This document shows, piece by piece, positions 15,992-64,000 of a stretch of DNA of 64,000 nucleotides. The notes beneath the pieces were generated by a model. It had not been told where the DNA came from. It was given only the letters and a program-made list of their open reading frames with translations, and did no database searches. The position numbers were made by a program, and so were the translations under genes. The DNA is taken from NCBI GenBank assembly GCA_965247035.1, contig CBDFGJ010000003.1, positions 1,252,840 through 1,316,839 of the forward strand, given 5' to 3'. How positions within the stretch are numbered: position 1 is the first letter of the stretch; the number at the start of each line of letters is the position of its first letter. Origin of the DNA: Candidatus Azophilus sp. (GTDB lineage Bacteria; Pseudomonadota; Gammaproteobacteria; Pseudomonadales; Azotimanducaceae).

Positions 15992-16000
15992 GCCGCCGCG

Positions 16001-17337: not shown

Positions 17338-17338
17338 G

Positions 17339-18589: not shown

Positions 18590-18653
18590 GATGCGACGGG
18601 GTTGGTCGATCCAAGACCAGCTCAGTTGAAGGGCAACTGATCGGAATCGAAAC

Positions 18654-25375: not shown

Positions 25376-25448
25376 CGTGCGCAGGCAGTGGCATCAGGCT
25401 CATTCGCACACTTTGCTTGTGCGTCGGAACAATGGTTGAGGTGGCGCC

Positions 25449-28148: not shown

Positions 28149-29336
28149 ATGACTAACTCCATCTCCCACAGCCGCCGGCTCATCTCGCGGGCGTTTGTCG
28201 CCTGCGTCCTTCTGCGGGCCTGGCCGCGCAGGCACACGCCCAGGCCTGTCTGGCTTGGCTGTTTCGCCTGGCACCTTGTCGCCCGCGTTTGATCCTGACG
28301 TTATTGATTACAGCGTCCAGGTGGCTGGTGATGTGACATCAATCGAATTTACGCTAACTTCGGATACAGATATCACCGTGGATGGAGCAGGATTTACCAG
28401 TGGAGAGACCAAGTCATTCTCTTTTGGCGCTGACCTTAATACAAAAGATTTCGTCATTATTGTAGGCACTTTTTCCGGCACCCGAGGCCACTTCGTCACC
28501 CTGACCCGCGACACCGTAGATCTCCTCAACGGAGCCGGGTTTGAACACACCGGCGGTAAGAACAGGGCGATACGACCTATTTGAATCGTGGTGACAGCAT
28601 CACGGTATTCGTGCAGTCCGACGAATCGCTGCCTGCGAATTCCCTTGTGGATGTTGCCAGATTTACCTTTTCCGGCACCCCCTTCCCGGCGCAAAGTTTG
28701 CTGCCGGTGTCCGGCATCGCGAACCGATATTCGGCGACCCGTACAATCAGAAACAGTGACCACGGAGAGTCGCTAAGTTTAGTTGTTCGCGGTGTCAGGA
28801 ACGCTGATGGCAACCTGGTGACCGACCTTACTGTAGACCTCCAAACAAGGGTAACCATCGACACCCGCGCACCGGCGATTGAACTGGCAGGCAATTCAGC
28901 CGTGACCGTTGCCCATGGCGTCGAGTACTCCGATGATGGCGTGCGTGGGCTGGATACGGCGGCTGGCGAGCAACTGGAAACGGCTGTTGTCGGACCTGGC
29001 AGTGAGACCACAGTGAACACCCGCGTCGCCGGCGCCTACACCATCACCTACACCGCGACCGACCGCGCCGGCAATACCGACACGGAGACCCGCACCGTGA
29101 CCGTGTCCGACCCGCCAGCCGCGAAGCCGATTGCCGATGCGGGAGCCGATGTCACCCTGGCTACCAACGCGGAAATGACGCTGGACGGCTCCAGTAGCAA
29201 CAGTGTCGGTCAGACGATCAATTTCTATACCTGGACGCAGACCGTCGGCGATCAAGTCGACTTAGATGTCAACGCCTTGCGCCCGACCGCGACCTTCACC
29301 GCGCCGGTTGCGGCGGCGGCTTTGCCGCCGCTTTGA
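28149..29336 (+). pseudogene. Frameshifted, C-terminally truncated secreted adhesin fragment (signal peptide + cadherin-like beta-sandwich + Ig-like/DUF5011-like + partial PKD)
   Basis: The reading frame must change three times, near 28215, 28245 and 28575. The pieces are: MTNSISHSRRLISRAFVACVLL (frame 0); GLAAQAHAQA (frame 2); LSGLAVSPGTLSPAFDPDVIDYSVQVAGDVTSIEFTLT...FEHTGGKNRAIRP (frame 1, track ORF 28195..28584); and YLNRGDSITVFVQSDESL...TIDTRAPAIELAGNSAVTVAHGVEYSDDG...YTITYTATDRAGNTDTETRTVTV...PIADAGADVTLATNAEMTLDGSSS (frame 0, track ORF 28581..29336). The joined sequence is colinear with FTHTGGVEVGTTVFFNVGDTLTAFVNSDEAL... in the 2,909-aa protein. It ends inside the PKD domain. Confidence 0.7.
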
Positions 29337-29551: not shown

Positions 29552-29677
29552 GTGAACAAAATAACCACCGACATACACAAAACAATCACCAACATTGGTT
29601 TTTGCCTCGGTGCTACTGGCAGCGATGAGCGTCGCCCCCCCCCAGCCAGCCACGCAGCAGAGAGGCAAGTGCTATGA
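29552..29677 (+). other. Upstream leader ORF: degenerate, frameshifted copy of the downstream gene's start and signal peptide; its stop overlaps the main ATG (ctATGAat)
   Basis: gtgaacaaaataacc...aaaacaatcaccaacattggtttttgcctcggtgctactggcagcgatgagcgtcgcc aligns with the real 5' end atgaataaaacaatcacccaattcgttttcgccgcggcgttgctggtggcgatgctggcgtcaacc. Its stop TGA (29675-29677) overlaps ATG 29674-29676. It is in the same frame as track ORF 29411..29677. Confidence 0.6.
29635..29643. repeat. Homopolymeric C9 tract 31 nt upstream of the autotransporter start codon, inside the leader ORF
   Basis: Counted directly: gtcg CCCCCCCCC agcc. Confidence 0.95.
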
Positions 29678-38511: not shown

Positions 38512-38543
38512 AGCGAGGCTCCGCCCGGGGCTTCGCTTTTTTT
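38512..38543 (+). terminator. Rho-independent terminator after the autotransporter gene
   Basis: Stem AGCGAGGC (38512-38519) pairs with GCTTCGCT (38530-38537), including one G-U pair. The loop is GC-rich and a T7 run follows (38537-38543). Confidence 0.7.
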
Positions 38544-38727: not shown

Positions 38728-38835
38728 ATGAACAAGCTAATCACCCGATTCGCTTTTGCCTCCGCGTTACCGGTAGCAATAGGTATCCCCCCGCACACAC
38801 AGCGGGGGCCAGGCATCATGAAAAAAGTGCTATGA
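38728..38835 (+). other. Upstream 35-codon leader ORF resembling a decayed signal peptide; its stop overlaps the giant ORF start (ctATGAac)
   Basis: ATG 38728 opens MNKLITRFAFASALPVAIGIPPHTQRGPGIMKKVL*, with TGA at 38833-38835 overlapping ATG 38832-38834. The N-terminus MNKLITRFAFASAL parallels the real MNKIVTQFALVSAL. It contains a C6 tract, (CA)4 and a G5 tract. Confidence 0.6.
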
Positions 38836-41800
38836 ACAAAATAGTCACTCAATTCGCTCTCGTCTCGGCGTTGCTGGTGGCGATGATGGCATCAATGGGC
38901 ACCGCCCATGCGCAAACGCTGCGTATCACTGGCTCCCTGACCCCATCGTTTACCGAGAATGTTGCCCGCGCCGCGGCAGTGTACGCCGCGAATGTCGACG
39001 GCGTCAGGGTCACCAGACCTGACTGGTCGGTCAGAGGTGAGAATGCGCACTTATTCTCGATTAGTCGTAGGAATGATGGTAACGGCTTATTGACCTTTAA
39101 CGAGCCGCCGGACTTTGAAGCCCTCGGTGCCACAGTCGAGATAAACGTCATCGCCACCCGGTCTGTCGGGGGTTCACTACAGACAGCTTCGCGGTCGGTA
39201 TTGGTCAAAATCATCAATGTGGATGAACCGGGCAGAGTCAACATCGCAGGTGAGTCACGGCTTGGGGCGACCTTGACCGCCACAGTGGATGACCCGGATG
39301 GTAATGTCAGAGACATCACTTACCAATGGTATCGAACATCGAGAGTCGATGTAACGGCGTTCCGCCTCATTGATGGTGAAACCTCCCGCACCTTCACGAT
39401 AAGGCCCCCAAGCGTCGATTTTAGCGGCGACCGCGACCGAAACATCCAAGTCAGGGTCGAATATAAGGACGTTCATGGCGACCAGACCGCCACCAGCCAC
39501 CAAGTCATCCGGGCAGAAGCAATAAGTTTCCCTTACTCCACAATCCACACAGCCCACACAATTGAAGCCTCGGGGCCCGCCAGAGTTAGCCCGGGGCAAT
39601 CTTATACCTACCGCGTGGGTGCGAATCAGGTCGTAGGAGTGAATACCCATGCGGTGGGCATATTCAGCAACATCAGTCGCCAGGGGCAGATCGTTGCCCG
39701 GCATACCGATTGCGCAGCACATAAGCCTTTGTTTTGTCTGCTTACCACCAGCACCAGCGCCTCTGACCGGTACTCCAATGCGAGGTTGACCTTCCGGGAT
39801 GGTGCATCGGACTACTTGACTCCCTCCTCGACCCGTCAATCCTGGACCTACACAATCACCGTCAGCCGCGACGTCGAGGATGGCGACACCATCAAACTGA
39901 TCTACGCCCACAGAAACACGTTGGCGGCGCCGAGCGGTCTTGGTATGGAGTTTTTCGACATAGTAGCGGTGGTTCCTATCCCTGAACCGCCGCGCAATCT
40001 GGCTGTGCGCGGCGCGGATGAAGAGGTGACGCTCAGTTGGAATGAGCCGAGCAATGTCGCAGATGCGGGCGTCCTTCGTTATGAATACCAACAAAGCACA
40101 ACTCCAGGAAACTTCAGCGGTGGCTGGAGTGCCATTGAAAGTGGCGATTCGATCAGCAACCTGAGAAACGGCGTCAGATACTACTATCAGTTGCGCGCCG
40201 TAACCACGAGGGGTGCGGGGGCCATGGTCTATGGTAATGCTGAGGTAGGACCCAGACCGGTCGTCACCTTTTTTCAATTGCCGACCGACATGACCGCCAC
40301 CATGGACTCCACGGCGACCATGAGATTCGCCACGCCAGTGCGTGGCTTGAGCCGGAATGAAGCGGAATGGAGGACTAATATCAGCACTACCAATGCCCGT
40401 ATCGTCAGCATATACAATGTTGATCAGGACAAAACCTACCGAGGTTCCGGTGCTGCACCGCTCGGTTTTGACGGGCTCACCGGAAGTTACGAAGTCACCC
40501 TTAGACCGCTTGCCGCCGGCGGAGTAAGCCTGGTCGTGCATAGCAGTTCAGTATTCAGCGCAGCGGGGCACCCAAGTACTATCTTTAGTGCCAGTGGTAC
40601 TGCGCTTTCGATGCCGCCGCCCGGCGTGCCGGTCAACTTCGCTGCGCACGCCGGCGATGGGAGCATCGGTTTGACCTGGGAGCAGCCGGTCACGGGCGGC
40701 GTGGTTGTCTCTTATCGCACCGAGTGCGTGGCTGGCGACAGTCGAAGCGTCAAGGACACACCAGAACTGGGCGTTATGCACACCAGCCTGGTCAACTCGA
40801 GGGAATACCGATGCACCCTGAGTGCGCAAAACTCGCAAGGAGAAAGCGCCGAAGCGGTTGCCACGGCACGCCCGCTTGTTGGTGAAGGCGTGGTGGTAGA
40901 TGGGACGAACTTTGACCCTGCGGGCGCCCGCGTATTCACACTCCGAGGCCCGGTCACGATTAGAGCCGGCGGTGTCTATAGATTTGAATTGAGCAAGCCG
41001 TTCGGCGATGTGGAACAAGATGGGCAACAAAGCGTGGCTTTGTATAGCGAGAATAATGCCGATTCCATCGCACTCGGCGGCAGTGGCTGTGGCAGTCGTT
41101 TCTGCTTCTCAACCAATTCCCCGGCCGGTGCCTACTCCGGCTTGGATGGTCAAGCCGACTCGGCCGGTAATAACCTGCAGGAAGGCGGAGCCTTCTGGAT
41201 ATTAACCCTCCATGTTGGCGAGGATGTCACCGAAGGCGAGCAGGTTTTCATCGGCATGCGAGAGCATGGCACATCGGAAGGCAACCGGCTTGGGCGGATG
41301 CTTACCCTGAATGTGGAGGTTGCCCAGCCGTCGCCGCCGCGTAATCTGCGGGTGATTAGTTCATCCGGACGCGCCACTTTGATTTGGGTGCAACCGGAAA
41401 GCGATGGCGGCACACCAGTCACTCGCTATGAATACCGCGTCAGCCAGAGCCCGGGAAACTACCCCCCGGACGCAGAGAGCAGATGGATGGGGATTCCTGA
41501 CAGCGCCTTCAAAATCCAGCATGTTGTGCCGAACCTGCAAAACAACACGCGCTATTACTTTCAAATACGTGCGGTCAACGTTGTGGGGGCCAGCCCGCCG
41601 TCTGGCGAGGTAAGCGTTGTCATCAGAGAAAGGCCCGAACTCGCCGTGCCATTTACTCTACCGGATGACATGATCGCGGGCAGAGCGTCCACGGTGACCC
41701 TCACCTTCGTGTCGCCGGTCAATGGTCTCGGCGTAGACCCTGCGGATTGGGTATCCGACTTTCTCGGCAGCAACAATGTGGTGATCAACAGCGTGCGCAA

Positions 41801-44800
41801 TGTTGACCAGAACAAAACCTACAACGGTCAAGGCACCGCGCCAGTTGACTTTGACCGCGAGACTCAAAGTTATGTCATCACCTTCACGCCACAGATATTC
41901 GGCACAACCAGCGTTGAGATCGGCATAGGCGGTGTGCGCATCGGTGGTCTTGACGGCGCGGCCGCGGATTACAATGAAATTCTATTCCTCGCCATCAACA
42001 ATTCTGGTGTACCGCTGCCACCCGCCGCCCCGACTAATCTTATCGCTCGGTCTTTTAGCACAGAGGATATTGAGCTCTATTGGGACCGTTCCATCGGTGA
42101 CAGTCCGGTGATTGATTACTCTGCGACCTGCACCACAACCGCCCCGTCAATTGATCCACCCTTAACCCATACCGCAACCACCACCGATACCGAGGTTGTC
42201 ATTCAGGGCGCGCGCCCTGATGCGGTATACGAATGTCGTGTGGTTGCTCGCAACCCGGGCGGCTCCAGTGGTTTTGCTTCGGCAATCATACGACCAGGCT
42301 TTACCGGAGAGCATACTGAAGACTATAGAGATGGCGGGTTCGGCATCCAACTCGTCGGCCACAGAACTGTCTTTGCGGGCACCACCAATAGATACCTTCT
42401 CCGCAAACCTTCCGGCGACATCACCAGAAACGATGATGTCGCCATCGGCATATACAGCAGGACGGCGGGCAAGGTTGGGCTCACCGGGCATGGTTGCACT
42501 TCGACTTTTTGTATGGAAGTCGACTCCACTATTCCCGGCACCCTCTTTACCGGCAGAGGTTACGCTGACGGTGCCGCCCAGTATCTGGATGCGGGCGGAA
42601 ATTTCTGGACCATTGAAATTAAGATTGCTGCAGATGCTCGCGACGGCGAAACGTTTGACTTCGCCCTAGTGCAAACGCCACGCGGCACGGACAAAACAAC
42701 ACGACTGTTCAGCGTCACCGTGCAAAGCTCGGCACCCCTCTCACCTGTATTGGCGAGCCCGGTCGCCGGGGATAAACAAGTCCGGTTGTCATGGCAGTTG
42801 AACTCCGTTCAGGTTGGTTCGACCATTGCCACCGAGTATCGCCAAACCACGACTGCGGGATCATATCCCCGCCAAACCAGCCCCTGGACACGCATCTCCA
42901 ATAGTGCCGCCAGCCGCCTGTCCTACACCGTCGGGGGGCTACGCAACAACATAAACTACTACTATCAGGTGCGCGCAATCAACGAGGTTGGTCCCGGCAC
43001 ACCGAGTAATGAGGTTTCAGTGCATGCCGGACCGAGGCCCCAACTCTCCGGCACCTTCGCCTTGCCGGACACAATGATTGCAGGCGACGAATACGATACG
43101 ACTGTCACCTTCGCCACGCCGGTCAACGGTCTTGGTATCAGCCCGTCAGACTGGGTGAGTGATTTCGCCTCATCTTCTAATATGCGGATTATTCGCGTAC
43201 ACAATGTTGATCAAAATAAAACCTACAACGGGCTGGGTAACGCGCCAGGGGGATATTCTGCCGAGACCAGAAGTTACACCATCACCTTCTCGCCAACCAA
43301 CCGAGGCTTTGCCATATTGACAATAGGAGCGGGAGCGGTGCGCATCGGTGATACCAATGACTTTTTCAGTACTCAGACCTTCAGCGCCAGAGAGGTCGCC
43401 GGAGCGCCGGAACTGCCGGGTACCCCCACTGATTTTGGAGCCATCCCCGGCGACGGCAGCATCACCCTGTTCTGGGGAGCACCGACCAGCGGTGGCACCC
43501 CCACTAGATACGAGACGAAATGCTCTGGCCCGACTTCTCCGGACACAACTACGGATACGGAAACCTTCACCCGCACCTTCACCGGGCTCACGAATGACAG
43601 GGAATATCGTTGCCAGGTGTTAGCCCACAACTCGGCTGGCAACCAGGGCACGTCGGAAATAACCGTTTGGCCACGCGTACTGGCTGCCGGCGTGGATGCG
43701 AGAACGGAAGATATTGCGGTGCGTGGCGTCACGTTTAATCTGGACGGTCCGACCACAATCCGACCCGGGAACACCTATCGTTATGAACTGCGCAAGCCTG
43801 GCGGCGATATCAGTGGTAATGAAAGCATCAGTTTTGCTATCAATTCCGACGACCAAAGCGTCGGCGCCGGCGGTGAGGATAACGCAGGCAATGATAACGG
43901 TTGCCGTGATAGCCGGTTTTGTATATCTACAACGAGCCAGATTGCCGCAACAGACCACCGTGCGATTGGATACACTGACAGTGCGGGATGGTTTTTGCAG
44001 GGAGGTGGAAATTACTGGGAATTTGATCTCGGGGTTAAATCGGCAGCGGTTAATGGCGATCAGATAGTCTTTACCATCAGAGGTCCGGCAGGCGATACCG
44101 ATACTCAAGCGATACTCACCGCCACCGTCGAACTTGCGTCCTCCAGCGCGCCGATCAATCTACGGGCGACCAGCGCACTCAACGGCGTCAGACTGATATG
44201 GGATGCGCCGGCTGACTTCGGTGGTCGAGCCATCAGTCGTTACGAGGTTCAGTATCGGCAAAGTAATACCAACGATGCTTGGAGAAGTGCCGACGCCGAC
44301 CTCACCGGCACCCGCACCCGCACGATCAGTGGTCTGGTTAGCCGACGGGCTTATGTTTTCCGCGTGCGCGCCATAACTTCCGTGGGTGTTGGCAACTGGT
44401 CCGATGAAGTCACCAGGGAGGCGGGAACAAGACCAGTCCTGACTTTTGACGCCACGCCGTCCAACACCGCTGTCGGTGCGCAGAGCAGGGTGGTGCTTGA
44501 GTTTGCAACTCCGGTTGAAGGTCTCGGTGTCAACCCGACTGACTGGATAGATGATTTTGCCGCTAGTACCAATGTGGACATCGACCGCGTGGAGAATGTT
44601 GCGGAAGGGGTGACCTACGACGGTGTTGGCGAGCCGCCGGCAAATTATCACCTCCCGACCAGATCATTTGTCATCTACTTCACACCACTTGCTCTCGGTG
44701 CTGCGGATATCACCATCCGCACGGGCGGAATACGAAGCGAACTTTTCAATGATGCACCGATTATCCTTGGCAGCACGGTGGATCGACTGGGGAGACCGGA

Positions 44801-59800: not shown

Positions 59801-62800
59801 AGACTTAGCTGGAGCAGGTGCATTCACAGGAGGTAGTGTTACCGACACTAATAGCGACCGCACCACTTACACCCTTAGCCTCATCCCGGCCTTCGTATCC
59901 ATCACCTTAGGCGTCCCTGCCAACGGCGTGGCCGACATCGCCGGCAACACGGGTCCCGCTAGCGTTGCCGAGGTGGCCATCACTGCGCAAGCCGCACCAC
60001 CGGTAGTCGCTCTTCTGGCGGACACCGGCATTGACGGCGATGGCATCACCAGCGATGGAAGGATAGAGGTTACTCTGGATGAGTTTTTTGGTAACCAGGC
60101 TACTAACACCTGGGAATACTCCATCAATGACGGCGCGGATTACACCCCCGTCACCGACACCACCGGCACCAGCGCTCAGTTTGAATTGCCCGAAGGCGTA
60201 TATACCGCCAATCAGGTGCGAGTGCTTCAGGTAGTGAGGGAATCTGAGTCCCTACCTGCCAGTCTCGGCGCAGTTACCATTGACACCACCGCACCGATGG
60301 CGAGACTCGGCAGCATTACCGGTGCTGTGATTGACCAGACGGGGCAGACGCACGACATCACCTTCACCGAGAATGTGACCGATTTGGTTGCGGGTGATTT
60401 CTCCACTTCCACAGGTATCACGGTGACTGCTGTGAGCGGTAGCGGTGCTGCTTATACCATCACCTACACCGCGACTTTGGCATCCTTCACTCTGACCCTT
60501 ACCGCGGCCAGCGTGTCCGACATTGCCGGCAATCCTGTTGCCGAAACCAGCATGACCGGCATTGCGACTGCGGCACCGGCAAACCAGCCGCCGGTGATTA
60601 CCTTCGACCGGTTTGACGACACCGGTGGTGTAGACTTCATGGGCGTTGCGATCTATTTGAATGAAGGCGACACCCTCACGGTGTTCGTGAACTCCGACAA
60701 ACCGCTTGCCGCTACGTCGCTTGTGGGTGCTGCCTTGTTTGGCTTTGACGGATCAGTACGCCTTGCGCAAAATCTGCTGCGGGTAGCCGGCACCACCGAC
60801 CCATATCAATATTCGGCGACCTATACCATCACAACTGCTGATCACGATGCAGGGGTAGAATTTAATGTTCGCGGTGTTACGGACACTGCCGACCCCGCGA
60901 ACCCGGCACCTGATTTCGAACACTCTCTCAGAACAGTGAATATCGACACCGAGGCACCGGACATCGACCTGGTCGGCATTGCTGCAGTTACCGTCCCCCA
61001 CGACGGCACATACACCGATGATGGCGTGAGTGGAGAGGGGCGTGAGGATACTCTGGAGACGACTATTACCGGACCCGACGGTTCGGCAGTGAACGTAGTG
61101 GACCCCACCGCGGAAGGCGACTACCTCATCACCTACACCGCGACCGACCGCGCCGGCAATGTCGCCACGGAGACCCGCACCGTGACCGTGAGCGAGCCGG
61201 TGGCCGCGACCAACACCGCGCCGGTAGTCAGTGGCGAGGCAGCACCGGATTATGCCGAGAACACCCCCGTCACCACGCCAGTGGCGACCTACACCGCGAC
61301 CGATGCCGAGAGCAACGCCGTTGAATGGTCAGTCGGTGGCACGGGTGCGGGAGACCTCACGATTGATTCCGCAAGCGGCGTCTTGACATTCAAAAACCCG
61401 CCGAATTTTGAAGCCCCGAGCGATGCCAACGCCGACCGTGTTTATGACATCATCATTACCGCCACGGAAACCGATGGTAACCCAAGCAACCTGGTAAGCG
61501 AACCACTTGCGGTAACGGTAACGGTTACCAATGTGGAAGAGGGCGTCGGCACGGTCAGCATCAGCGGCACCCCCCAGGTTGGCATGGCATTGACCGCCGA
61601 CACAGTAGCCGGTGACCCGGATGGCTTTGTTTCGGTTGATAGTCGCCAATGGCAGAGCGTGGACGGTGCCACCATCACCGACGTCGGCACCGATGTGACC
61701 TACACGCCGCTTGCGGCGGATGTCGGCAAGACCATTCAAGTAGTCGTTACTTACACCGATGGTTTTGGTGGCGGCAATACCGTCACCAGCGCGCGCACCC
61801 TGGCCGTGGTTGCCGCCGACGCACCCGCGGCACCGACTATCGCCCTGGCTGCGGACACCGGTTCTGATACCAGCGATGGCATCACCAGCAATGGCCAGGT
61901 GAATGTGACTCTGGCGGAAGGTTTTGATAGCACCACGGACACCTGGCAGTACTCCACCGATGGCAGTGTCCCCGTCACCGCCGGCACCAACCCCGGCACC
62001 GGCACCGCCGCCAGTTTTGATTTGGGCGAAGCGGGCTTGGGCTTGGACGACGGCACCTATCAATTACGCGTCCACCAGACCATTGATGATACCGTGTCTG
62101 CTGTCGCCTCTTTGGCAGTAACGCTGGACACCACCGCACCGATGGTGGACTTCAACATCAACAACCTTGCCGATGGTGTGGTTAACGTCTTGCAGAACCA
62201 CGACATCACCTTCTCCGAGGCGGTAACCGATTTGGCAACGGATGATATTTCCGGTTCCTTGGATGCCGCAGTGGCGCTCGTGAGCGGTAGCGGTAGTACG
62301 TACACCATCTCCATCACTCCGGACGACACACAGTACACCCTAATCCTTGCCGCCAACGCAGTAACCGACCTCGCCGGTAACGCCAATGCCGAGGTGAGGG
62401 TATCCGTAGACGGCAAAGTAAACCGACTGCCGGTTGCCGAAGCGGGGGACAATCAACCTGATGCGGTTACCGGCACGCAAGTAACGCTGGACGGCTCTGG
62501 CAGCACCGACGCCGATAGCGGTGATGATCTGGCATACTCCTGGGCGCATACCTCGACCGATGGCAACCCGCCGGGTACTCCTGTGGCGATTACCGAGGAC
62601 GGCACCGCTGCTGACGACCCCGCCACCCCGACCGCGGTCTTCACGCCCACGGCGGAGGGGGCTTATACCTTCACCCTGACCGTTACCGATAAATTCTCAA
62701 CCCCGGCAAGCGACACCGCCACGGTAGTCATCACCGTAACGCCAGCCGCACCTGCAACTCCCGCACCTGTTCTCGGAGCAGTCACTGATACCAGTATAGT

Positions 62801-64000
62801 GCTCTCATGGGCCGCAGTGGATAATGCCGACACCTACACCCTGACCAGAGTTGTTGATGGCGGTGCTAATGTAGTAGTGGCATCTGCAATCACTGAACTG
62901 ACTGCCACTGATACCGGCCTGACTGCCGCAACTGATTACAAGTATTCCCTTATAGCGACAAATTCCGGTGGATCAAGCGTAGCTGCTGAGGCTGATGCAA
63001 GGACTGCTGATGCCCCAACTGCTGCACCTGGCCTTGCGACACTTAGAGCAGGAGAAATCACTCATAACACTATAACGCTATTATGGGATGCAGTTACTGG
63101 TGTTGACAGTTACACCGTGTTCAGAGTTGTTACAGGCAGTGCTGATGTGGTAGTGGCAACAGTGACAGTAGGCAATGCATTGACTGCCACTGATTCTGGC
63201 TTGACTGCTGAAACAGAGTATAAGTATGTCATTACCGCAAGAAATTCTATTGGGACAAGTAATTCTGTAGAGCTTCCTGTAACTACTAATGCAGCACCTA
63301 CCACCAACGCCGCGCCGACCATCACCAGAACCATTGACGATAACGCATTGAGTTATGCCGAAAACGGCAACGGAGCAGTGTGGAACTACGCCGCGACCGA
63401 TACCGATGGCGATGATGCCGCCATCACCTGGTCACTCGGCGGAACGGATGAGGAAGACTTCACGCTTGATGCCACAAGCGGCGCATTGACTTTCAACGCC
63501 ACGCCGAACTATGAGGCACCGGCGGATGCCGACACCAACAACGTTTATCGAATCACCGTAACCGCCACCGATGACGGGAGTGCGACAAGCGATTTGGCGG
63601 TAATGGTAACGGTTACTAATGCGGAAGATGCCGGAAGCGTCAACGCCATCACCGGCACCGCGCAGGTCGGGCAGACCCTGACTGCCGGCGACACGGTAAC
63701 TGACGAGGATAGCGCGGGCATGATTGCCATCACCGGCCATCAATGGCAACGGTTGCCGTCCGGCGGCGGCGCGCCCGTAGACATCGGCACTGACCAAGAT
63801 ACCTACGATGTGGTGGCTGCTGATCTCGGAGCCACCCTGCGCGTGGTCGTCTCTTATACCGATGATTTTGGCGGCAACACCGACACCGCCACCAGCGCAC
63901 CGACCGAAGCCGTGATTGCCGCGCCGGTCACGACCACACCTGCCGTGTACACTCTAAACGATGAACCTCATGCTACTGACGGAGATAAAGTAGTTATAAC
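38832..64000 (+). CDS. Giant secreted multi-domain adhesin-like protein, 3' end beyond the window (at least 8,389 codons): cadherin, FN3, PKD, Ig-like and unassigned Cys-containing domains
   Basis: ATG 38832 is the first start after in-frame TAG 38712 and opens MNKIVTQFALVSALLVAMMASMGTAHA|QT. I translated by hand continuously from 38832 to about 44100 and spot-checked frames at 49440 (YSSSEFHAVG) and 63960 (DEPHATDGDKVVI) without meeting a stop. None of the 18 plus-strand track ORFs between 38.9 and 64 kb is in this frame. That is the expected picture for one ORF with no stop in the window. Confidence 0.85.
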   Translation, partial: MNKIVTQFALVSALLVAMMASMGTAHAQTLRITGSLTPSFTENVARAAAVYAANVDGVRVTRPDWSVRGENAHLFSISRRNDGNGLLTFNEPPDFEALGATVEINVIATRSVGGSLQTASRSVLVKIINVDEPGRVNIAGESRLGATLTATVDDPDGNVRDITYQWYRTSRVDVTAFRLIDGETSRTFTIRPPSVDFSGDRDRNIQVRVEYKDVHGDQTATSHQVIRAEAISFPYSTIHTAHTIEASGPARVSPGQSYTYRVGANQVVGVNTHAVGIFSNISRQGQIVARHTDCAAHKPLFCLLTTSTSASDRYSNARLTFRDGASDYLTPSSTRQSWTYTITVSRDVEDGDTIKLIYAHRNTLAAPSGLGMEFFDIVAVVPIPEPPRNLAVRGADEEVTLSWNEPSNVADAGVLRYEYQQSTTPGNFSGGWSAIESGDSISNLRNGVRYYYQLRAVTTRGAGAMVYGNAEVGPRPVVTFFQLPTDMTATMDSTATMRFATPVRGLSRNEAEWRTNISTTNARIVSIYNVDQDKTYRGSGAAPLGFDGLTGSYEVTLRPLAAGGVSLVVHSSSVFSAAGHPSTIFSASGTALSMPPPGVPVNFAAHAGDGSIGLTWEQPVTGGVVVSYRTECVAGDSRSVKDTPELGVMHTSLVNSREYRCTLSAQNSQGESAEAVATARPLVGEGVVVDGTNFDPAGARVFTLRGPVTIRAGGVYRFELSKPFGDVEQDGQQSVALYSENNADSIALGGSGCGSRFCFSTNSPAGAYSGLDGQADSAGNNLQEGGAFWILTLHVGEDVTEGEQVFIGMREHGTSEGNRLGRMLTLNVEVAQPSPPRNLRVISSSGRATLIWVQPESDGGTPVTRYEYRVSQSPGNYPPDAESRWMGIPDSAFKIQHVVPNLQNNTRYYFQIRAVNVVGASPPSGEVSVVIRERPELAVPFTLPDDMIAGRASTVTLTFVSPVNGLGVDPADWVSDFLGSNNVVINSVRNVDQNKTYNGQGTAPVDFDRETQSYVITFTPQIFGTTSVEIGIGGVRIGGLDGAAADYNEILFLAINNSGVPLPPAAPTNLIARSFSTEDIELYWDRSIGDSPVIDYSATCTTTAPSIDPPLTHTATTTDTEVVIQGARPDAVYECRVVARNPGGSSGFASAIIRPGFTGEHTEDYRDGGFGIQLVGHRTVFAGTTNRYLLRKPSGDITRNDDVAIGIYSRTAGKVGLTGHGCTSTFCMEVDSTIPGTLFTGRGYADGAAQYLDAGGNFWTIEIKIAADARDGETFDFALVQTPRGTDKTTRLFSVTVQSSAPLSPVLASPVAGDKQVRLSWQLNSVQVGSTIATEYRQTTTAGSYPRQTSPWTRISNSAASRLSYTVGGLRNNINYYYQVRAINEVGPGTPSNEVSVHAGPRPQLSGTFALPDTMIAGDEYDTTVTFATPVNGLGISPSDWVSDFASSSNMRIIRVHNVDQNKTYNGLGNAPGGYSAETRSYTITFSPTNRGFAILTIGAGAVRIGDTNDFFSTQTFSAREVAGAPELPGTPTDFGAIPGDGSITLFWGAPTSGGTPTRYETKCSGPTSPDTTTDTETFTRTFTGLTNDREYRCQVLAHNSAGNQGTSEITVWPRVLAAGVDARTEDIAVRGVTFNLDGPTTIRPGNTYRYELRKPGGDISGNESISFAINSDDQSVGAGGEDNAGNDNGCRDSRFCISTTSQIAATDHRAIGYTDSAGWFLQGGGNYWEFDLGVKSAAVNGDQIVFTIRGPAGDTDTQAILTATVELASSSAPINLRATSALNGVRLIWDAPADFGGRAISRYEVQYRQSNTNDAWRSADADLTGTRTRTISGLVSRRAYVFRVRAITSVGVGNWSDEVTREAGTRPVLTFDATPSNTAVGAQSRVVLEFATPVEGLGVNPTDWIDDFAASTNVDIDRVENVAEGVTYDGVGEPPANYHLPTRSFVIYFTPLALGAADITIRTGGIRSELFNDAPIILGSTVDRLGRPDAPVNFVIVPSDQTLTFNWDAPTTRTVIHRYELRCDSPNSAVRVTAIDAPATTATFTGLINGDEYVCDLNSENTHAGTTKDSGNVRRRGQPLEAVGVSENAERSYPNGNVRFTVSGETTLQPGSTYTYELRKPNGNIHGDDVFAVGIRSKTANQVGYGSACGDTFCLVVEPGRATSDTTPSGYNDVAERFLEQGGEFWQATVLVSPTAPTGASVELFTRFAGTNTDAAESHRAFILTVKPASVDINFSPIGNAGPNQILLSGTRVSLNGSAFDQNNDPLTYNWEHTSTDGVEPTTPISIIDSTKAGASFIAPIVDKPTQYRFTLRVADADTAHSDRVDIVVAPSGSIVIPEYMSAFTIAGSSNLGSGLNTFTVKRTYGNYSSQIRATLSTDSSTPNQYSVFVDGKAYGRIEDTDTLGAFVWKIPLPSKNQWRIGIDPTSGARVGDTLTLGMATDNPARYYQPTRTLRYRTQVSLIANAGADQLAANGDRITLDASDSSGDSVAYSWRQTGGHMVTLTNADTATPFFIAPRLGEMTDLVFELTATDAASTTETDTVIVSVVPPGAIIIDDPERAAGQSAVFTLEGPTTLIPDTPQTYTLRLIHGGYTESGTLSEQIGVGIFSDVAADDSKFSLAIDPVVAGGVNPITCNSCGVFASAGGLAANSQNIWELTVTASGAAVEGDQVQFGLVTFTQPAQAHVPTMTLTTGKSAQNNPPAILGVTTVQYAENDSVLVAEFTATDAERDDITFGLTGLDAGFFEIGNGGDDHGKLFFQVNPDFENPDRFDINAGATDNTYQVTITATDNGSPQAVGNHPVVITLSDVSEPGTVTVTGNSQVGQELTATLQDGDAIQGEVSWQWQRSNVPPVYNDIDSATEAIYTPTNDDQGRILRARASYTDSHGSQSAADLSRRIVSAVDLVATIAELGTPTAGQPASVRVDFTSMVTDLTLERFSATNANLNSLAGSNTEYVVVYTPVTEDAVTLSLAADFAKNRDGTSNPATASGTAVMAVAESSSAIPSFTAEATFVGITTGEWSYDNEFKTAIADLIRRGAQSADVRINGLRATATALTVEFEVVAADVTRLNARLLAYNALPAAAFSRTLAKVAAGATSVTTTIATASLLTANDKPVARAGSNQTVLQGEGVTLDGGASTDSDGSITTYAWRQISGTVVALTRGATASQSVFTALHSPETLIFELTVTDNHGDIDSEQIMVTILPDADASLSGLTISSGTLAPLFLSTHPTYTAEVPIGVERITVTPTVNNDGATLMVNRVDLERGSASQAIPLTVGVPAEVVIKVTAEDGEASQTYTVTVTRTSNAGPRITGTRQVGYNENHDGTVATYTAVDVEGDAFAWSLGGEGAPFFSIDRGVLTFSDPPDFEYAEHDNTYDILITATETNRVPPAVSELPVTITVINVNEPGSVIVTGDLRVGATLTAELEDPDGGILETEYLWARQPVSASGFQRIAGETNQTYTLTTDDINHIIRSRVNYKDRFGGAFVTIDTETEAILSREYDTGRNTNSGDFTIKAEGPSTIRPGENNFTVTVVRGSYSSSEFHAVGIYSDVAVSGEETIARSVDCGRLQPLFCLRSSSSSGITEYSNAGLTYADGAADYLNVTGSRNNASGATWTYTIIVSPKALHDQVISLAYATTDEFVQGSTAYKFFDLTVEVPVPEAPRNLVVRGDDEEVTLTWDAPANVADAGVLRYEYRQSTIPRNFSGVWSAIESGDAIFNLENGIRYYYQVRAVTSRGEGAAAEASAEVVPRPEVAYFELPTDMAATMAATATMTFATPVRGLSRNEAEWRTNITTTNARIESIRNVDQDKIYRGIGAAPLGFDGLTRSYEVTFRPLTAGRINLVVHSSSVSSAAGHQNVVFSASGIVRSMPPPGVPANFAVRAGDKSISMTWEQPVTGGMVATYLTECVSGDSRSAMDTSELRVTHTSLINTRQYRCTLSARNSEGESAQAIAEARPLVDEGTAVDGTNFNPAGNRVFTIRGPVTIRAGGVYRFELSKPFGDVEHDRQQSVALYSESSADSIALGDSGCGSRFCFSTDSSVDAYSGLDGQADSAGNYLQKGGAFWMLTLHVGEDVTEGEQVFIGMREHGTSEGNRLGRMLTLNVEVAQPSEPRNLRVIGSSGRATLIWVQPESDGGTPVTRYEYRVSQTAGQYSNAQGRWMAIPDSAFKNQYVVPNLQNGRRYYFQTRAVNVAGPGQPSVEANVVIRERPELAVPFTLPEDMIAGRASTVTITFVSAVNGLGVDPVDWVSDFLGSNNVVINSVRNVDQNKTYNGQGAAPSGFDRETRSYVITFTPQIFGITSVEIGIDGVRIGGLDSTIGYGNENLLTAISHSLEPPRPSTPTGLVARLDGDDDIALDWDPAPQDDTVVDYLVTCTTTNSAIDPPLIHTATTTNTEAVIVDPRLAAEYECRVIARNQGGSSGHASATIVPRSSEIIPDETLTYSDPDSNFAIQLSRGPRTVSPGETYRYHLRLADGSIDEVTHVAIGIYSRTANKVELIDNDCSLTFCMDVANTGASGTLLTNRGYADGAAQYLQRSMIGNNWTLVIEIAADAADGETFDIAVVQTPRGVDKTSPLLSVIVHAEPPLPPIFMDPVGADGEVTLAWGPNTEKNNAIAGYEYRQTTTAGSYPSRTSPWTRVSNSAASSRVWNITGLLNNVRYYYQIRAIGETTGAGSPSAEKSVAVGPRPQLSGTFSLPGGIVAGEEANTTVTFATSVNGLAISPTDWASDFRNSVNTRVIRVRNVDQDKTYNGLGNAPEGYAAETRSYTITFSPMNDGNTSLTISEGAVRIGDSNDFFSARQFSARGSASRPARPGAPIDFGVIPGDGSATLFWGAPTSGGTPTEYEVQCVVGSTGTGTRTDTETFTHTITGLTNDREYVCHVVSVNSGGSSPRTPEISVWPRALTVGVDATTEDIAVRGVTFNLIGATTLRPMRAYRYELRKPTGDINGDTSISFAINSAETSVGAGRQDDPGDDNGCSSRFCIYTTNRTEIAKLDHRPIGYTDSAGWFLQDGGNFWTFSLEVKSEAVNGDQIVFTIRGPAGDTDIQEILTATVEIVASGAPTNLQATNQGNDIRLSWDEPDDNGGESITRYEAQYRQRNTNDAWSSVRAPRTDNPNVVITNLVSMQGYVFRVRVITSVGVGIWSDEIVRAAGTRPDLTSPAGLPDDMAVGAQSRLVLDFAAPVEGLGINPTDWIDDFSASTNVIIERVENVTEAVTYDGVGDPPANFHLPSRSFVIHFTPIALGVADITIRTRAIRRELFNDVPIVLGGEVNQLGRPDAPVNFVVTSGANTLILNWDAPATGTVIHRYRARCVDSSRDVERSATIDAPATTTTFTGLTNGEDYFCELFSENTHAGTTKNSGSVRRSGRPLAISGASSSSDQSYPNGNVRFTVNGETTLDRNGDYTYELRKPGGNIHGDDVYAVGIRSKIADQVGYGDDCGNTFCLEVHTGREISHTPPSGYLDVAERFLQRGGNYWRITVQVATFAPTGASVELFTRFAGTNNDAAESHRMLFLTVQPPGADANISPEADAGEDQILLSGVQVSLSGTGFDQNGDELTYEWEHTSTNGVEPSQRINITNSTEATASFTAPSASSTDAIEYEFSLKVEDATAADFDTVSVVVVPDGSIIIPQRNLAFAIEGPTTLELGDNQFTLIRLYGGYTNVHAGNIETQVGLVLSTALEPNLARAFDLVPPAGFFSSKNVVENGAFGRYAVEAVLTSNIFGRVFKVNAKTSARTGDLLTLGLATYQPDRFWQPTLALRYQELEELVADAGADQIVPSGASVALNAGDSTGDSVGYVWRQTEGAPAVTLTGENTATPTFTAPAVTAMTDLVFEVTVTDSTTSSQTDTLTISVAPPDAIIINHPGRAGGQAAVFTLEGPTTLIPGAQQDYTLNLIHGAYTQAAIRSEQIGVGIFSDVVTDGSKFSLSIDPAVAAGLAPLTNCGCGEFTSASGLAPNVQNTWALAVTATNEAEENDQLRLGLVTFAPTELAHQPFLTLITGQSEANNPPAISGGQTHNYAENSDAVVATFAATDAEGDAFTFGLTGLDSGLFEIGNNDAEGAINDAVGALIFKRMPNFEDPARFDSVTEIFDNTYQVTITATEDDEPTVVGTYSVVITVTDVDEPGTVTIAGSGQAGQELTATLQDEDTIAGEVSWQWHRGNQPDNGRDNPINSATAAAYTPTSDDQGRILRARASYTDTHGAKTASAVTEAITMENILLATIAELGVSTVGLPASVRISFSAAVTGLATGHFAITNASIASLAGSNTEYVLIYTPAGPGRVTLSLAADSVQDSERRGNVAATASGTAEAEVAISLPTIPSFTAAVSFDGITTGEWSFDDQFKTAIASFITGVTAADVKILGRSATATDLAVNFEVVAPDQENIDAHVQTYNAVATAVFNQTLSAIVAAAAATGVTTTTAMPGATLASTDATLSRLAVFHKDGSQATVTPALTAGTFDYAVTLPFSSDTFTFTARGDGDATITTQGQTFPSGQSSPDIAVPVGATTVNFLVTAEDGSSTQPYTLHVTRTAVATDATLSDLIISAGILSPEFDSAAAEGTAYAITVGREVSSVTVTPTVNNAFARVTVNNVAVISGQPSNDIALNLDAETSITTTDITIVVTAEDGTTRNYVITVTHISNFPPMLDGNPARDYLETDTGSVDYKITDENANDEDRASWVISGGMDAALFRIRAISTDTASVTFKRQPDFETPHDADRDQVYEVTLTATDAGTPPLSVTVEARITVTDVDEDGAVIIEGIAQVGKTLEVILTDPDAVTQTNSNGTVAAADITHKWQNSPSDSPDYADISGATEATYTLKESDAGRTIRVMPTYTDTHGSKTLTSAETNAVALETASAAPGIALVDTGFSNSDGITNNGVVNVTLANDFVLDRDTWHYSTDGSAPDTAGTNPDSGTAASFDLGDEGLDLADGTYQIRVRQTIDGTVSVIASLQMTLDQTAPTVVTFDDPAEGVFGVPQLLDVTFSEPVTGFAFGDLAGAGAFTGGSVTDTNSDRTTYTLSLIPAFVSITLGVPANGVADIAGNTGPASVAEVAITAQAAPPVVALLADTGIDGDGITSDGRIEVTLDEFFGNQATNTWEYSINDGADYTPVTDTTGTSAQFELPEGVYTANQVRVLQVVRESESLPASLGAVTIDTTAPMARLGSITGAVIDQTGQTHDITFTENVTDLVAGDFSTSTGITVTAVSGSGAAYTITYTATLASFTLTLTAASVSDIAGNPVAETSMTGIATAAPANQPPVITFDRFDDTGGVDFMGVAIYLNEGDTLTVFVNSDKPLAATSLVGAALFGFDGSVRLAQNLLRVAGTTDPYQYSATYTITTADHDAGVEFNVRGVTDTADPANPAPDFEHSLRTVNIDTEAPDIDLVGIAAVTVPHDGTYTDDGVSGEGREDTLETTITGPDGSAVNVVDPTAEGDYLITYTATDRAGNVATETRTVTVSEPVAATNTAPVVSGEAAPDYAENTPVTTPVATYTATDAESNAVEWSVGGTGAGDLTIDSASGVLTFKNPPNFEAPSDANADRVYDIIITATETDGNPSNLVSEPLAVTVTVTNVEEGVGTVSISGTPQVGMALTADTVAGDPDGFVSVDSRQWQSVDGATITDVGTDVTYTPLAADVGKTIQVVVTYTDGFGGGNTVTSARTLAVVAADAPAAPTIALAADTGSDTSDGITSNGQVNVTLAEGFDSTTDTWQYSTDGSVPVTAGTNPGTGTAASFDLGEAGLGLDDGTYQLRVHQTIDDTVSAVASLAVTLDTTAPMVDFNINNLADGVVNVLQNHDITFSEAVTDLATDDISGSLDAAVALVSGSGSTYTISITPDDTQYTLILAANAVTDLAGNANAEVRVSVDGKVNRLPVAEAGDNQPDAVTGTQVTLDGSGSTDADSGDDLAYSWAHTSTDGNPPGTPVAITEDGTAADDPATPTAVFTPTAEGAYTFTLTVTDKFSTPASDTATVVITVTPAAPATPAPVLGAVTDTSIVLSWAAVDNADTYTLTRVVDGGANVVVASAITELTATDTGLTAATDYKYSLIATNSGGSSVAAEADARTADAPTAAPGLATLRAGEITHNTITLLWDAVTGVDSYTVFRVVTGSADVVVATVTVGNALTATDSGLTAETEYKYVITARNSIGTSNSVELPVTTNAAPTTNAAPTITRTIDDNALSYAENGNGAVWNYAATDTDGDDAAITWSLGGTDEEDFTLDATSGALTFNATPNYEAPADADTNNVYRITVTATDDGSATSDLAVMVTVTNAEDAGSVNAITGTAQVGQTLTAGDTVTDEDSAGMIAITGHQWQRLPSGGGAPVDIGTDQDTYDVVAADLGATLRVVVSYTDDFGGNTDTATSAPTEAVIAAPVTTTPAVYTLNDEPHATDGDKVVI
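38930..48750 (+). repeat. Super-repeat copy A (~9.8 kb) inside the giant ORF
   Basis: It is colinear with copy B at the following offsets: 9,819 (atcaatgtg[ga]atgaaccggg, 39213 vs 49032); 9,825 (41008 vs 50833); 9,852 (43348 vs 53200); 9,864 (44641 vs 54505); and 9,916 (46932 vs 56848). The domain order is the same from the cadherin domain to the cadherin-like beta-sandwich. Confidence 0.85.
39984..45520 (+). repeat. Four tandem four-domain modules (FN3a, Ig-like, Cys-pair FN3b, unassigned Cys domain) in super-repeat A
   Basis: Module starts are at about 39984 (PEPPRNLAVRG), 41328 (QPSPPRNLRVIS), 42725 (APLSPVLASPVAGDKQVRLSW) and 44140 (SSAPINLRATS). The periods are about 1,344, 1,397 and 1,415 bp, and the last module is about 1,380 bp. 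Confidence 0.8.
48751..58740 (+). repeat. Super-repeat copy B (~10.0 kb) inside the giant ORF
   Basis: Same evidence as for copy A. Copy B ends with two cadherin-like beta-sandwich units (58,110-58,740) where copy A has one (48,450-48,750). Confidence 0.85.
49809..55385 (+). repeat. Four tandem four-domain modules in super-repeat B
   Basis: Module starts are at about 49809 (PEAPRNLVVRG), 51153 (QPSEPRNLRVIG), 52565 (EPPLPPIFMDPVGADGEVTLAW) and 54000 (ASGAPTNLQATN). Confidence 0.8.
62770..63300 (+). other. Low-GC in-frame patch encoding two FN3 domains within the giant ORF
   Basis: Hand GC counts on 60-nt lines give 50% (62821), 52% (62881), 42% (63061), 43% (63181) and 38% (63241). A flanking line at 63841 gives ~60%. 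The patch encodes VLGAVTDTSIVLSWAAVDNADTYTLTRVV...TDYKYSLIATNSGGSS and LRAGEITHNTITLLWDAVTGVDSYTVFRVV...TEYKYVITARNSIGTS. Confidence 0.8.

What the first reader, a model, noticed from the sequence alone, without database searches (positions are those of the whole stretch)
38832..64000. Giant Sec-signal ORF, still open at the window edge (at least 8,389 codons) and invisible in the ORF track
Seen: one frame (position mod 3 = 0) runs from ATG 38832 to the last base with no stop in the stretches I translated, namely 38832 to ~44100 continuously plus spot checks at 49440 and 63960. The supplied track contains no plus-strand ORF in this frame over 25 kb, which fits a single ORF with no stop in the window. 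The N-terminus is a classic Sec signal peptide (AHA|QT). Inference: a gene longer than 25 kb would be among the largest bacterial genes. Its C-terminal anchoring or secretion domain is not in view, so the export route is unknown. It could be an autotransporter barrel like its neighbour, or something else.
Basis: partly seen in the sequence, partly recalled or inferred. Interest (0 to 1): 0.75.

Follow-up and report, generated by a model that had tools for sequence, protein, structure and literature searches.

The report
Giant multi-domain surface adhesin gene
The 25-kb open frame is real and encodes the first 8,389 residues of a huge, Sec-exported chain of about 74 small beta-sandwich domains. 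It is a fibre-like surface adhesin from a sponge-symbiont-type gammaproteobacterium and most likely ends in an autotransporter barrel like its neighbour, so it is a large but recognisable member of a known class.

Summary
ATG 38832 opens a frame with 0 stops in 8,389 codons, while the other five frames have 81-508 stops. The ORF runs off the window, which is why the ORF lister omits it.

The product has a Sec signal peptide followed by about 74 beta-sandwich domains. These are fn3, PKD, cadherin, cadherin-like and Big_12 domains, plus two domain types absent from Pfam (X and Y). The in-window part is about 883 kDa, pI 4.4.

It has three blocks:
- Two tandem copies of a ~3,300-aa cassette (62% aa, 74.5% nt identical).
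- A 1,750-aa cysteine-free tail that is paralogous to the upstream neighbour.

The neighbour is a 2,909-aa autotransporter (PF03797, 31.7 bits) with a near-identical signal peptide. Every traceable relative carrying this signal peptide ends in the same barrel. Relatives sit in sponge-associated MAGs, often as ORFs of more than 4,000-5,300 aa. One cassette also exists elsewhere as a free-standing 2,890-aa protein (P0241).

Best reading: a fibrillar adhesin of an autotransporter family, enlarged by cassette fusion and duplication. The C-terminus is unseen, so the export route is inferred (about 0.6). It is not a size record: BigE is a 10,429-aa autotransporter and Omnitrophota genes reach 85,804 aa. 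I rate it a new member of a known kind, of moderate interest.

The parts
38832..64000 (+). Giant ORF, 5' part only: 8,389 codons with no stop, still open at the window end
   Evidence: 0 stops against 81-508 in the other frames. Pfam domains are found along the whole length.
38832..38912 (+). Sec-type signal peptide MNKIVTQFALVSALLVAMMASMGTAHA|QT
   Evidence: Sequence features. Paralogous to the neighbour's signal peptide and to those of barrel-ending homologues.
38913..48737 (+). Cassette copy A (residues 28-3302): CAD-Ig-[X-FN3-Y-FN3]x4-X-PKD-X'-PKD-X-CAD-Ig-Big_12-Z-PKD-cadherin-like
   Evidence: Self-derived HMM domain map; Pfam.
48744..58736 (+). Cassette copy B (residues 3305-6635): same domain order as A, ending in two cadherin-like beta-sandwich domains
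   Evidence: A and B are 61.6% aa and 74.5% nt identical over 3,243 aligned codons. dN/dS is about 0.75.
40899..41327 (+). Example of the X domain (residues 690-832). The HMM map gives 13 hits: 12 full-length copies plus one partial in the X' region of cassette B. Each carries a closely spaced Cys pair.
   Evidence: No Pfam hit. AF2 model with pLDDT 80.9, all-beta sandwich. Best PDB TM-score 0.51. Only 41 weak-to-strong hits among 1.84 billion representatives.
58743..63998 (+). Tail (residues 6638-8389): CAD-Ig-T1-Big_12-T1-Big_12-T3-BSIg-CAD-Ig-T1-Big_12-PKD-FN3-FN3-CAD-Ig, then 28 residues of a further unit. Cysteine-free.
   Evidence: 35-49% identical in blocks to the neighbour and to barrel-ending proteins elsewhere. 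Cysteine data.
38728..38835 (+). 35-codon upstream ORF whose TGA overlaps the giant's ATG (ATGA). It is a decayed extra copy of the family's 5' end.
   Evidence: DNA aligns with the starts of both the giant and the neighbour.
38512..38537 (+). Terminator-like hairpin plus T-run between the neighbour and the giant. It implies the giant has its own promoter in the region 38.55-38.83 kb.
   Evidence: 11-pair stem, 7 GC pairs, followed by TTTTTTGTCT. This is a consensus match only.
29674..38403 (+). Neighbour: 2,909-aa autotransporter adhesin with the same signal-peptide type, an Ig-like passenger and no cysteines
37000..38403 (+). Neighbour's alpha-helical linker plus outer-membrane beta-barrel, ending ...KGEIAF
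   Evidence: PF03797 at 31.7 bits, above the cutoff of 26. Low-confidence AF2 model showing a helix followed by long antiparallel strands. Foldseek hits include the BrkA, EstA, Hbp, AIDA-I and NalP barrels.
28581..29336 (+). 251-aa adhesin gene fragment with no signal peptide and a TTG start
   Evidence: 43% identical to giant residues 7276-7523; Pfam Bact_surface_Ig-like and PKD.

Best explanation
The frame encodes the N-terminal 8,389 residues of a giant fibrillar surface adhesin from an uncultured, sponge-symbiont-type gammaproteobacterium (order Pseudomonadales).

Shown:
- An intact 25-kb ORF with its own start.
- A Sec signal peptide.
- About 74 tandem beta-sandwich domains covering 92% of the residues.
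- A three-block build: cassette A, cassette B and a tail.
- The tail and the signal peptide are paralogous to the adjacent autotransporter and to a family of barrel-ending proteins in sponge-associated MAGs.
- One cassette exists elsewhere as a free-standing gene.

Inferred:
- The protein is exported by Sec and kept unfolded in the periplasm.
- A C-terminal autotransporter-type barrel (downstream of the window) is inserted by BAM, and the passenger is threaded out from C-terminus to N-terminus.
- The cysteine-free tail would then form the cell-proximal stalk. The two cassettes, with their 13 X domains, would form the distal, ligand-binding part of a fibre roughly 0.3 um long (about 4 nm per domain).
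- The fibre would bind sponge matrix, host cells or other microbes.
- The gene grew by fusing a P0241-like cassette onto an autotransporter-family gene and then duplicating it in tandem.
For: - ORF and statistics.
- Domain content.
- Cassette duplication.
- Neighbour is an autotransporter: PF03797 above cutoff, helix-plus-barrel model, C-terminal Phe.
- The signal-peptide DNA and protein are paralogous between the giant and the neighbour.
- Among proteins carrying this MNK..TQ..F signal peptide whose C-terminus can be traced, all end in the barrel: the neighbour, L002, P0014, P0015, P0016, P0102, and P0007 together with its adjacent gene. P0015 carries the barrel followed by a short extra tail.
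- 26 of the 120 best homologues of the tail end in the same barrel.
- 6 of 7 related genome loci are ORFs from 3,368 aa (L002, complete) to more than 4,600 aa that end in it.
- The tail has no cysteines, like the barrel-ending relatives.
- X-like domains with the same closely spaced Cys pair sit directly after the signal peptide in other proteins. Two of these (P0264, P0274) end in a homologous barrel.
- There are no RTX (GGxGxD) or LPxTG motifs in 8,389 residues.
- The autotransporter domain is one of the commonest anchors of proteobacterial fibrillar adhesins (PMC8286594).
- A 10,429-aa autotransporter built by passenger replication is known (PMC3419190).
Against: - The C-terminus is outside the window and could not be recovered, so no barrel has been seen for this protein.
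- The cassettes carry 8 cysteine pairs 29-35 residues apart, in the second FN3 of each unit. Proteins expected to form multiple disulfides or rigid structures in the periplasm are reported as largely incompatible with autotransporter translocation (PMC3521207, citing Leyton 2011).
- The X/Y cassette is absent from every barrel-ending relative examined.
- Its only close homologue, P0241, ends in a non-barrel, dockerin-like segment.
- Several family members are interrupted by frameshifts or IS elements, so this one may be broken downstream as well.
- dN/dS of about 0.75 between the cassettes shows weak constraint.
Confidence: 0.6

Rival explanations
1. It is a real giant Sec-exported adhesin that uses another C-terminal device. 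Examples are the dockerin-like segment seen in P0241, which would dock onto a partner protein, or release through a type II pathway. It would then not be an autotransporter.
For: - P0241, the only close homologue of the cassette, is a complete 2,890-aa protein with its own signal peptide and a 145-aa non-barrel C-terminus.
- The long-range cysteine pairs in the cassettes suit proteins that fold in the periplasm or outside the cell rather than threaded passengers (PMC3521207).
Against: - The signal peptide and the last 1,750 residues in view belong to the barrel-ending family, not to P0241.
- The P0241 C-terminal segment has no counterpart at the ends of cassette A or B, where the ORF instead continues into Big_12/Z/PKD modules.
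- Folding a fibre of more than 880 kDa inside the periplasm is hard to picture (inference).
Confidence: 0.2
2. It is a decaying or already broken gene. The frame is intact in the window but is interrupted downstream by a frameshift, stop or IS element before any anchor, so no functional surface fibre is made.
For: - Relatives are often split: P0007 and the next gene are separated by a stop 54 bp before the continuation.
- The L003 frame breaks repeatedly near its end.
- P0241 is followed by a transposase.
- The locus holds a gene fragment and a decayed 5' copy.
- dN/dS is about 0.75.
Against: 25 kb without a single stop or frameshift, where 130-300 stops are expected by chance, shows recent selection for the open frame. 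Both cassette copies keep all domain boundaries and all 20 cysteine pairs.
Confidence: 0.12
3. It is an assembly chimera. Two or three paralogous adhesin genes (a cassette gene and an autotransporter gene) were joined or duplicated by mis-assembly across shared modules.
For: The gene is modular, with modules shared among paralogues and even among genomes at 80-95% nt identity over 0.2-1.8 kb. The cassette and tail types occur as separate genes in another metagenome.
Against: - The internal repeats are only 74.5% nt identical overall and never near-identical over more than a few hundred bases.
- The reading frame is preserved across all block junctions.
- Related chromosome-level or megabase-contig MAG assemblies carry ORFs of more than 4,000-5,300 aa of the same family.
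Confidence: 0.05

Closest known systems
BigE, the 10,429-aa classical (type Va) autotransporter described by Celik et al. 2012 (PMC3419190)
   Same: A giant Sec-dependent protein whose size comes from replication of a large passenger unit. Here it would be anchored by a C-terminal barrel only if the inference holds.
   Different: The BigE passenger is grouped with the BrkA-like passengers, with internal repeats predicted to be beta-strand. This protein is a string of discrete Ig-like, FN3, PKD and cadherin beta-sandwich domains, and its barrel has not been seen.
The upstream neighbour (window 29674-38403) and its barrel-ending relatives in sponge-associated MAGs (L001, L002, L004-L007; P0002, P0014, P0016, P0036, P0102 and others)
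   Same: Same signal-peptide type, same tail modules (cadherin+Ig, T1, Big_12, PKD, Bact_surface_Ig-like) and the same cysteine-free composition in the tail. They occur in sponge-associated MAGs, mostly Gammaproteobacteria.
   Different: These relatives lack the X-FN3-Y-FN3 cassette. Where complete they are 1,300-3,400 aa long. Their barrels are observed, whereas the giant's is not.
P0241, a free-standing 2,890-aa cassette protein from ENA metagenome ERZ26167708
   Same: Same domain order as one cassette, 52-54% identical over about 2,700 aa, with the same cysteine pairs.
   Different: It has a different signal peptide and a single cassette. It ends in a 145-aa dockerin-like segment rather than continuing into a tail. 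It sits next to an IS element and a separate tail-like gene.
RTX/type I-secreted giant adhesins (LapA, MpIBP, SiiE class; PMC7493085)
   Same: Hundreds of kDa of tandem beta-sandwich extender domains forming a long surface fibre, acidic, and probably stiffened by calcium at cadherin-type linkers.
   Different: Those proteins lack a cleavable Sec signal peptide and carry C-terminal RTX repeats. Here a Sec signal peptide is present and no GGxGxD motif occurs in 8,389 residues.
Fibrillar adhesins as defined by Monzon et al. 2021 (PMC8286594), and eukaryote-like FN3/cadherin proteins of sponge symbionts (e.g. PMC3909097)
   Same: An extracellular single-chain fibre with a stalk of repeated domains. 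FN3 and cadherin domains are typical of sponge symbiont genomes.
   Different: It is much longer than typical members. It contains two domain families (X and Y) that are not in Pfam, and its anchor is unobserved.

Membership tests
Classical (type Va) autotransporter | N-terminal Sec signal peptide | tested here: met
   n-region, h-region and AHA|QT motif. Paralogous to the signal peptide of the neighbouring PF03797 protein. No SignalP-type predictor was run.
Classical (type Va) autotransporter | C-terminal PF03797-type outer-membrane beta-barrel preceded by an alpha-helical linker | not testable with these tools
   The ORF leaves the window at residue 8,389. The source contig could not be found. 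The feature is met for the neighbour and for relatives.
Classical (type Va) autotransporter | Passenger poor in cysteines, or with only closely spaced pairs (secretion competence) | tested here: inconclusive
   The tail has no cysteines, and the X domains have 12 pairs spaced 2-8 residues apart. However, 8 pairs are spaced 29-35 residues apart in FN3 domains. Barrel-ending relatives have 0-4 cysteines.
Classical (type Va) autotransporter | Passenger homologous to the passengers of proteins with a verified barrel | tested here: met
   The tail is 35-49% identical in blocks to the neighbour, and 26 of its 120 best homologues end in the barrel. This does not hold for the X/Y cassettes.
RTX / type I-secreted adhesin (LapA-like) | No cleavable signal peptide; N-terminal retention module with a LapG site | tested here: not met
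   A Sec-type signal peptide is present at residues 1-27.
RTX / type I-secreted adhesin (LapA-like) | C-terminal GGxGxDxUx nonapeptide repeats and a T1SS signal | tested here: inconclusive
   There are zero GGxGxD motifs in the 8,389 residues in view and no PF00353 hit. The true C-terminus is not in view.
Fibrillar adhesin (Monzon et al. 2021 criteria) | Extracellular single chain with a stalk of tandem repeated domains | tested here: met
   Signal peptide plus about 74 tandem beta-sandwich domains covering 92% of the residues.
Fibrillar adhesin (Monzon et al. 2021 criteria) | Adhesive domain at the end distal to the anchor, and a surface anchor | tested here: inconclusive
   X-like domains are the first domain after the signal peptide in other proteins, which suggests a tip role, but no binding function is known. 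The anchor is unobserved.
Type IX secretion substrate | C-terminal CTD (PF18962 or PF13585) in a T9SS-bearing (Bacteroidota) host | tested here: inconclusive
   The host is a gammaproteobacterium by SecY. CTD-bearing hits are Bacteroidota proteins that share only the cadherin-like domain. The C-terminus is not in view.

The most novel reading that the evidence does not exclude
The gene is an intact classical autotransporter whose passenger exceeds 8,400 residues. It would consist of about 75 or more discrete Ig-like domains rather than a beta-helix, and it would carry at least eight disulfide-capable loops of 29-35 residues. That would stretch the accepted size, fold and disulfide limits of type V secretion. 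It would also have been assembled recently by capturing and duplicating a cassette from a different adhesin class, within a pool of adhesin modules exchanged between sponge symbionts of different orders and phyla.
Probability: 0.25. Interest if true: 0.55.

Novelty: new member of a known kind. Interest (0 to 1): 0.4.

Why it matters
If complete and expressed, this would be one of the largest autotransporter-family adhesins, with at least 883 kDa in view. It would also be a clear case of gene growth by capture and tandem duplication of a 3-kaa cassette.

It adds two uncharacterised beta-sandwich domain families, X and Y. X is the better candidate for a binding domain, because X-like domains sit directly after the signal peptide in other proteins. 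It points to a shared, mobile repertoire of adhesin modules among sponge symbionts, which bears on how these bacteria hold on to their host.

It also offers a natural test of whether type V secretion tolerates very long Ig-like passengers with long-range cysteine pairs. It does not reveal a new kind of system.

Tried and rejected
- Recovering the C-terminus failed. An exact 60-mer from the window end is absent from genome contigs and metagenome contigs. Exact-protein look-ups of the neighbour, SecY and S4 found nothing. A protein-level scan of JGI metagenomes gave only short, distant contigs.
- The homologue search with the last 1,989 aa returned no self or orthologue hit, and nothing longer than 3,474 aa.
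- Whole-protein self-BLAST returned only the identity hit. Split queries were used instead.
- The X-domain alignment found nothing in the word-indexed protein search. The exhaustive HMMER search was needed.
- Sequence searches of the barrel against PDB chains, as a single sequence and as a profile, and against NCBIfam gave nothing.
- A link between the giant gene and the adjacent TssE/F/G genes was considered. I found no evidence beyond adjacency, and no other T6SS genes are in the window.
- The T9SS and RTX readings were rejected on host taxon, the signal peptide and the absence of motifs.

Full report
**Observation.** Translating window 38832-63998 gives 8,389 codons without a stop. The nearest upstream in-frame stop is at 38712, and no start codon lies between it and ATG 38832. 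Over the same 25 kb the other five frames contain 81-508 stops. Composition predicts 130-299 stops in this frame, giving ln P of about -131 or log10 P of about -132 for none. The ORF lister omits ORFs that run off the source, which is why nothing appears in this frame. The N-terminus MNKIVTQFALVSALLVAMMASMGTAHA|QT has the n-region, hydrophobic core and AxA features of a Sec signal peptide.

**Genomic setting.**
- Positions 9.5-23 kb hold the S10-spc-alpha ribosomal protein operon, including secY and rpoA.
- SecY is at most 93% identical to database proteins. The named hits are MAGs of Pseudomonadales or Gammaproteobacteria.
- After rplQ come an aldo/keto reductase, an orphan TssE/TssF/TssG trio and a 251-aa adhesin fragment.
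- Next is a 2,909-aa adhesin gene (29674-38403), then a terminator-like hairpin (38512-38537), then the giant gene.
- In the closest relative by SecY, rplQ is followed by uvrA and unrelated genes, so the adhesin region is accessory.
- GC3 is 63% in the giant gene, against 72% in the neighbour and mostly 70-82% in the core genes.

**Anatomy of the protein.**
- Pfam finds 17 fn3, 6 K319L-like PKD and 3 cadherin-like beta-sandwich domains, plus several cadherin, Big_12 and Bact_surface_Ig-like domains.
- HMMs built from the protein itself assign 74 domains covering 92% of the residues.
- Block 1 (residues 28-3302) and block 2 (3305-6635) are tandem copies of one cassette: CAD-Ig-[X-FN3-Y-FN3]x4-X-PKD-X'-PKD-X-CAD-Ig-Big_12-Z-PKD/CLB-CLB.
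- The two copies are 61.6% aa and 74.5% nt identical over 3,243 codons. Local nt identity ranges from 49% to 95%, and dN/dS is about 0.75.
- Block 3 (6638-8389) is a tail of CAD-Ig, T1, Big_12, T3, Bact_surface_Ig-like, PKD and FN3 modules. It is still continuing at the window edge.
- The in-window part weighs 883 kDa with pI 4.4. It has no RTX or LPxTG motifs.

**The X and Y domains.**
- X (about 145 aa, 13 HMM hits: 12 full-length copies plus one partial) and Y (about 120 aa, 8 copies) have no significant Pfam match.
- An AF2 model of X (pLDDT 80.9) is an all-beta sandwich. It has only generic Ig, cohesin or nanobody-like neighbours in the PDB, with TM-scores of 0.51 or less.
- The word-indexed search found no X homologue.
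- An exhaustive profile search of 1.84 billion representatives found 41 proteins at E of 1e-3 or better, and only one strong hit, P0241.
- Several weak hits carry a full-length X-like domain directly after their signal peptide, with the same closely spaced C...FC pair. Two of them (P0264, P0274) end in a barrel homologous to the neighbour's.
- This suggests X-type domains are tip domains that are compatible with this export route.

**Origin of the cassette.**
- P0241 is a complete 2,890-aa protein from an unrelated metagenome contig. It has its own signal peptide and a single cassette.
- It is 52-54% identical to A and B over about 2,700 aa, and it ends in a 145-aa dockerin-like C-terminus with no Pfam hit.
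- It is followed by a transposase and then a separate tail-like gene with its own signal peptide.
- X and Y are absent from the neighbour, from all seven related genome loci and from the 120 best homologues of the tail.
- The giant gene therefore looks like a cassette fused onto, and then duplicated within, a gene of the neighbour's family.

**The neighbour and the family.**
- The neighbour's last 467 residues score 31.7 bits on PF03797 (cutoff 26) and end in Phe.
- A low-confidence model shows a long helix followed by long antiparallel strands. Foldseek recovers autotransporter barrels (BrkA, EstA, Hbp, AIDA-I, NalP, EspP) among other outer-membrane barrels.
- The neighbour's signal peptide is about 70% identical to the giant's, and the 5' DNA aligns.
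- A scan of GTDB representative genomes found seven loci, all in MAGs: Halieaceae, Ca. Azotimanducaceae, Ca. Spongiihabitans, Ca. Poriferihabitaceae (two loci) and Nitrospinales.
- Their ORFs range from 3,368 aa to more than 5,372 aa. Six of the seven end in the same barrel at 40-78% aa identity.
- The query included the barrel, so this proportion is biased upward.
- Independently, 26 of the 120 best homologues of the tail alone end in the barrel.
- Every protein with the MNK..TQ..F signal peptide whose C-terminus can be traced ends in it. This includes P0007 once it is joined to its adjacent gene.

**Cysteines.**
- The neighbour has none, and barrel-ending relatives have 0-4, in pairs 5-12 residues apart where paired.
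- The giant's residues from 5945 onward, which include the whole tail, also have none.
- The cassettes hold 20 pairs. Twelve are 2-8 residues apart, in X domains. Eight are 29-35 residues apart, in the second FN3 of each unit. By position these lie in the C and F strands, which is an inference.
- Multiple disulfides or rigid periplasmic folding are reported as largely incompatible with autotransporter translocation (PMC3521207, citing Leyton et al. 2011).
- This is the main internal argument against, or complication for, the autotransporter route.

**Mechanism proposed.**
1. Sec export (shown: the signal peptide).
2. Barrel insertion and threading of the passenger from C-terminus to N-terminus (inferred from family membership).
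3. The tail forms the stalk near the membrane, and the two cassettes form the distal, multivalent binding region.
4. Cadherin-type DxDEPG or NVDEPG linkers possibly bind calcium, by analogy with RTX adhesin extenders (PMC7493085).
5. Fibre length is roughly 0.3 um, assuming about 4 nm per domain.

**Comparison and novelty.** Autotransporter domains are among the commonest anchors of proteobacterial fibrillar adhesins (PMC8286594). A 10,429-aa autotransporter built by passenger replication is described (PMC3419190). Far larger bacterial ORFs exist, up to 85,804 aa (bioRxiv 10.1101/2023.11.21.568195). FN3- and cadherin-rich proteins are a known hallmark of sponge symbionts (for example PMC3909097). 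The finding is therefore a new, very large member of a known kind. The newer elements are the X and Y domain families, the cassette capture and duplication, and the cysteine-bearing FN3 domains in an autotransporter-family context.

**Limits.**
- The C-terminus, and hence the export route, is not observed.
- The assembly could not be checked against reads.
- No expression data are available.
- The barrel model is low-confidence.
- Domain names T1, T3, X, Y and Z are my own working labels.

Noticed in passing
window 38728-38835: A 35-codon upstream ORF (MNKLITRFAFASALPVAIGIPPHTQRGPGIMKKVL*) whose TGA overlaps the giant's ATG (ATGA). Its DNA aligns with the start regions of both the giant and the neighbour, so it looks like a decayed third copy of the family's 5' end. 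A role as a coupled leader ORF is not excluded.
   Followed up: partly
window 24719-28113: An orphan TssE (gp25-like), TssF and TssG baseplate trio lies directly between the ribosomal operon/aldo-keto reductase and the adhesin genes. No other T6SS genes are in the window. TssF and TssG score below the NCBIfam cutoffs. The closest relative by SecY (L014) has no such genes after rplQ.
   Followed up: partly
window 29635-35403 and 60583-63906, against L002-L007: Stretches of 0.2-1.8 kb inside the adhesin genes are 79-95% nt identical to adhesin genes of MAGs from other orders and even another phylum. Examples: 33052-34804 against Ca. Spongiihabitans at 86%, 29635-30009 at 94.7%, and 35193-35403 against a Nitrospinales MAG at 95.3%. 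This suggests exchange of adhesin modules among sponge symbionts, or cross-bin contamination.
   Followed up: partly
window 28581-29336: A 251-aa ORF with a TTG start and no signal peptide is 43% identical to giant residues 7276-7523 and 41% identical to the neighbour. It is probably a leftover adhesin gene fragment.
   Followed up: partly
L008 1780-10452 (P0241), C-terminal 145 aa: Two repeats of an acidic DxDGD...D loop followed by AxxLYY(F/Y)AL, resembling a dockerin-type duplicated calcium-binding motif. There is no Pfam hit at E of 1 or better.
   Followed up: partly
L007 12096-12460: A second, truncated copy of the barrel (80% aa identical to the start of the neighbour's barrel) lies about 700 bp downstream of the complete barrel-ending gene in the Halieaceae MAG.
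   Followed up: no
L013 1-9650: Seven tandem paralogous genes of about 390-426 aa (AAA_16/AAA_22 ATPase domains) lie on the opposite strand, immediately upstream of the P0007 adhesin gene.
   Followed up: no
L003 about 47-16120 and 16045-19460: The Poriferihabitaceae ORF of more than 5,357 aa contains six near-identical tandem Big_12-like units. The reading frame then breaks repeatedly in the last 3 kb before the contig end, which is either gene decay or poor consensus at the contig end.
   Followed up: no
window 37000-38403: After the linker helix the neighbour's barrel region is about 380 aa, longer than the roughly 250-280 aa of canonical 12-stranded autotransporter barrels, and the low-confidence model shows about 18 strands. 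PF03797 covers only the first half of the profile (positions 2-122 of 255). This may be a divergent barrel subtype.
   Followed up: partly
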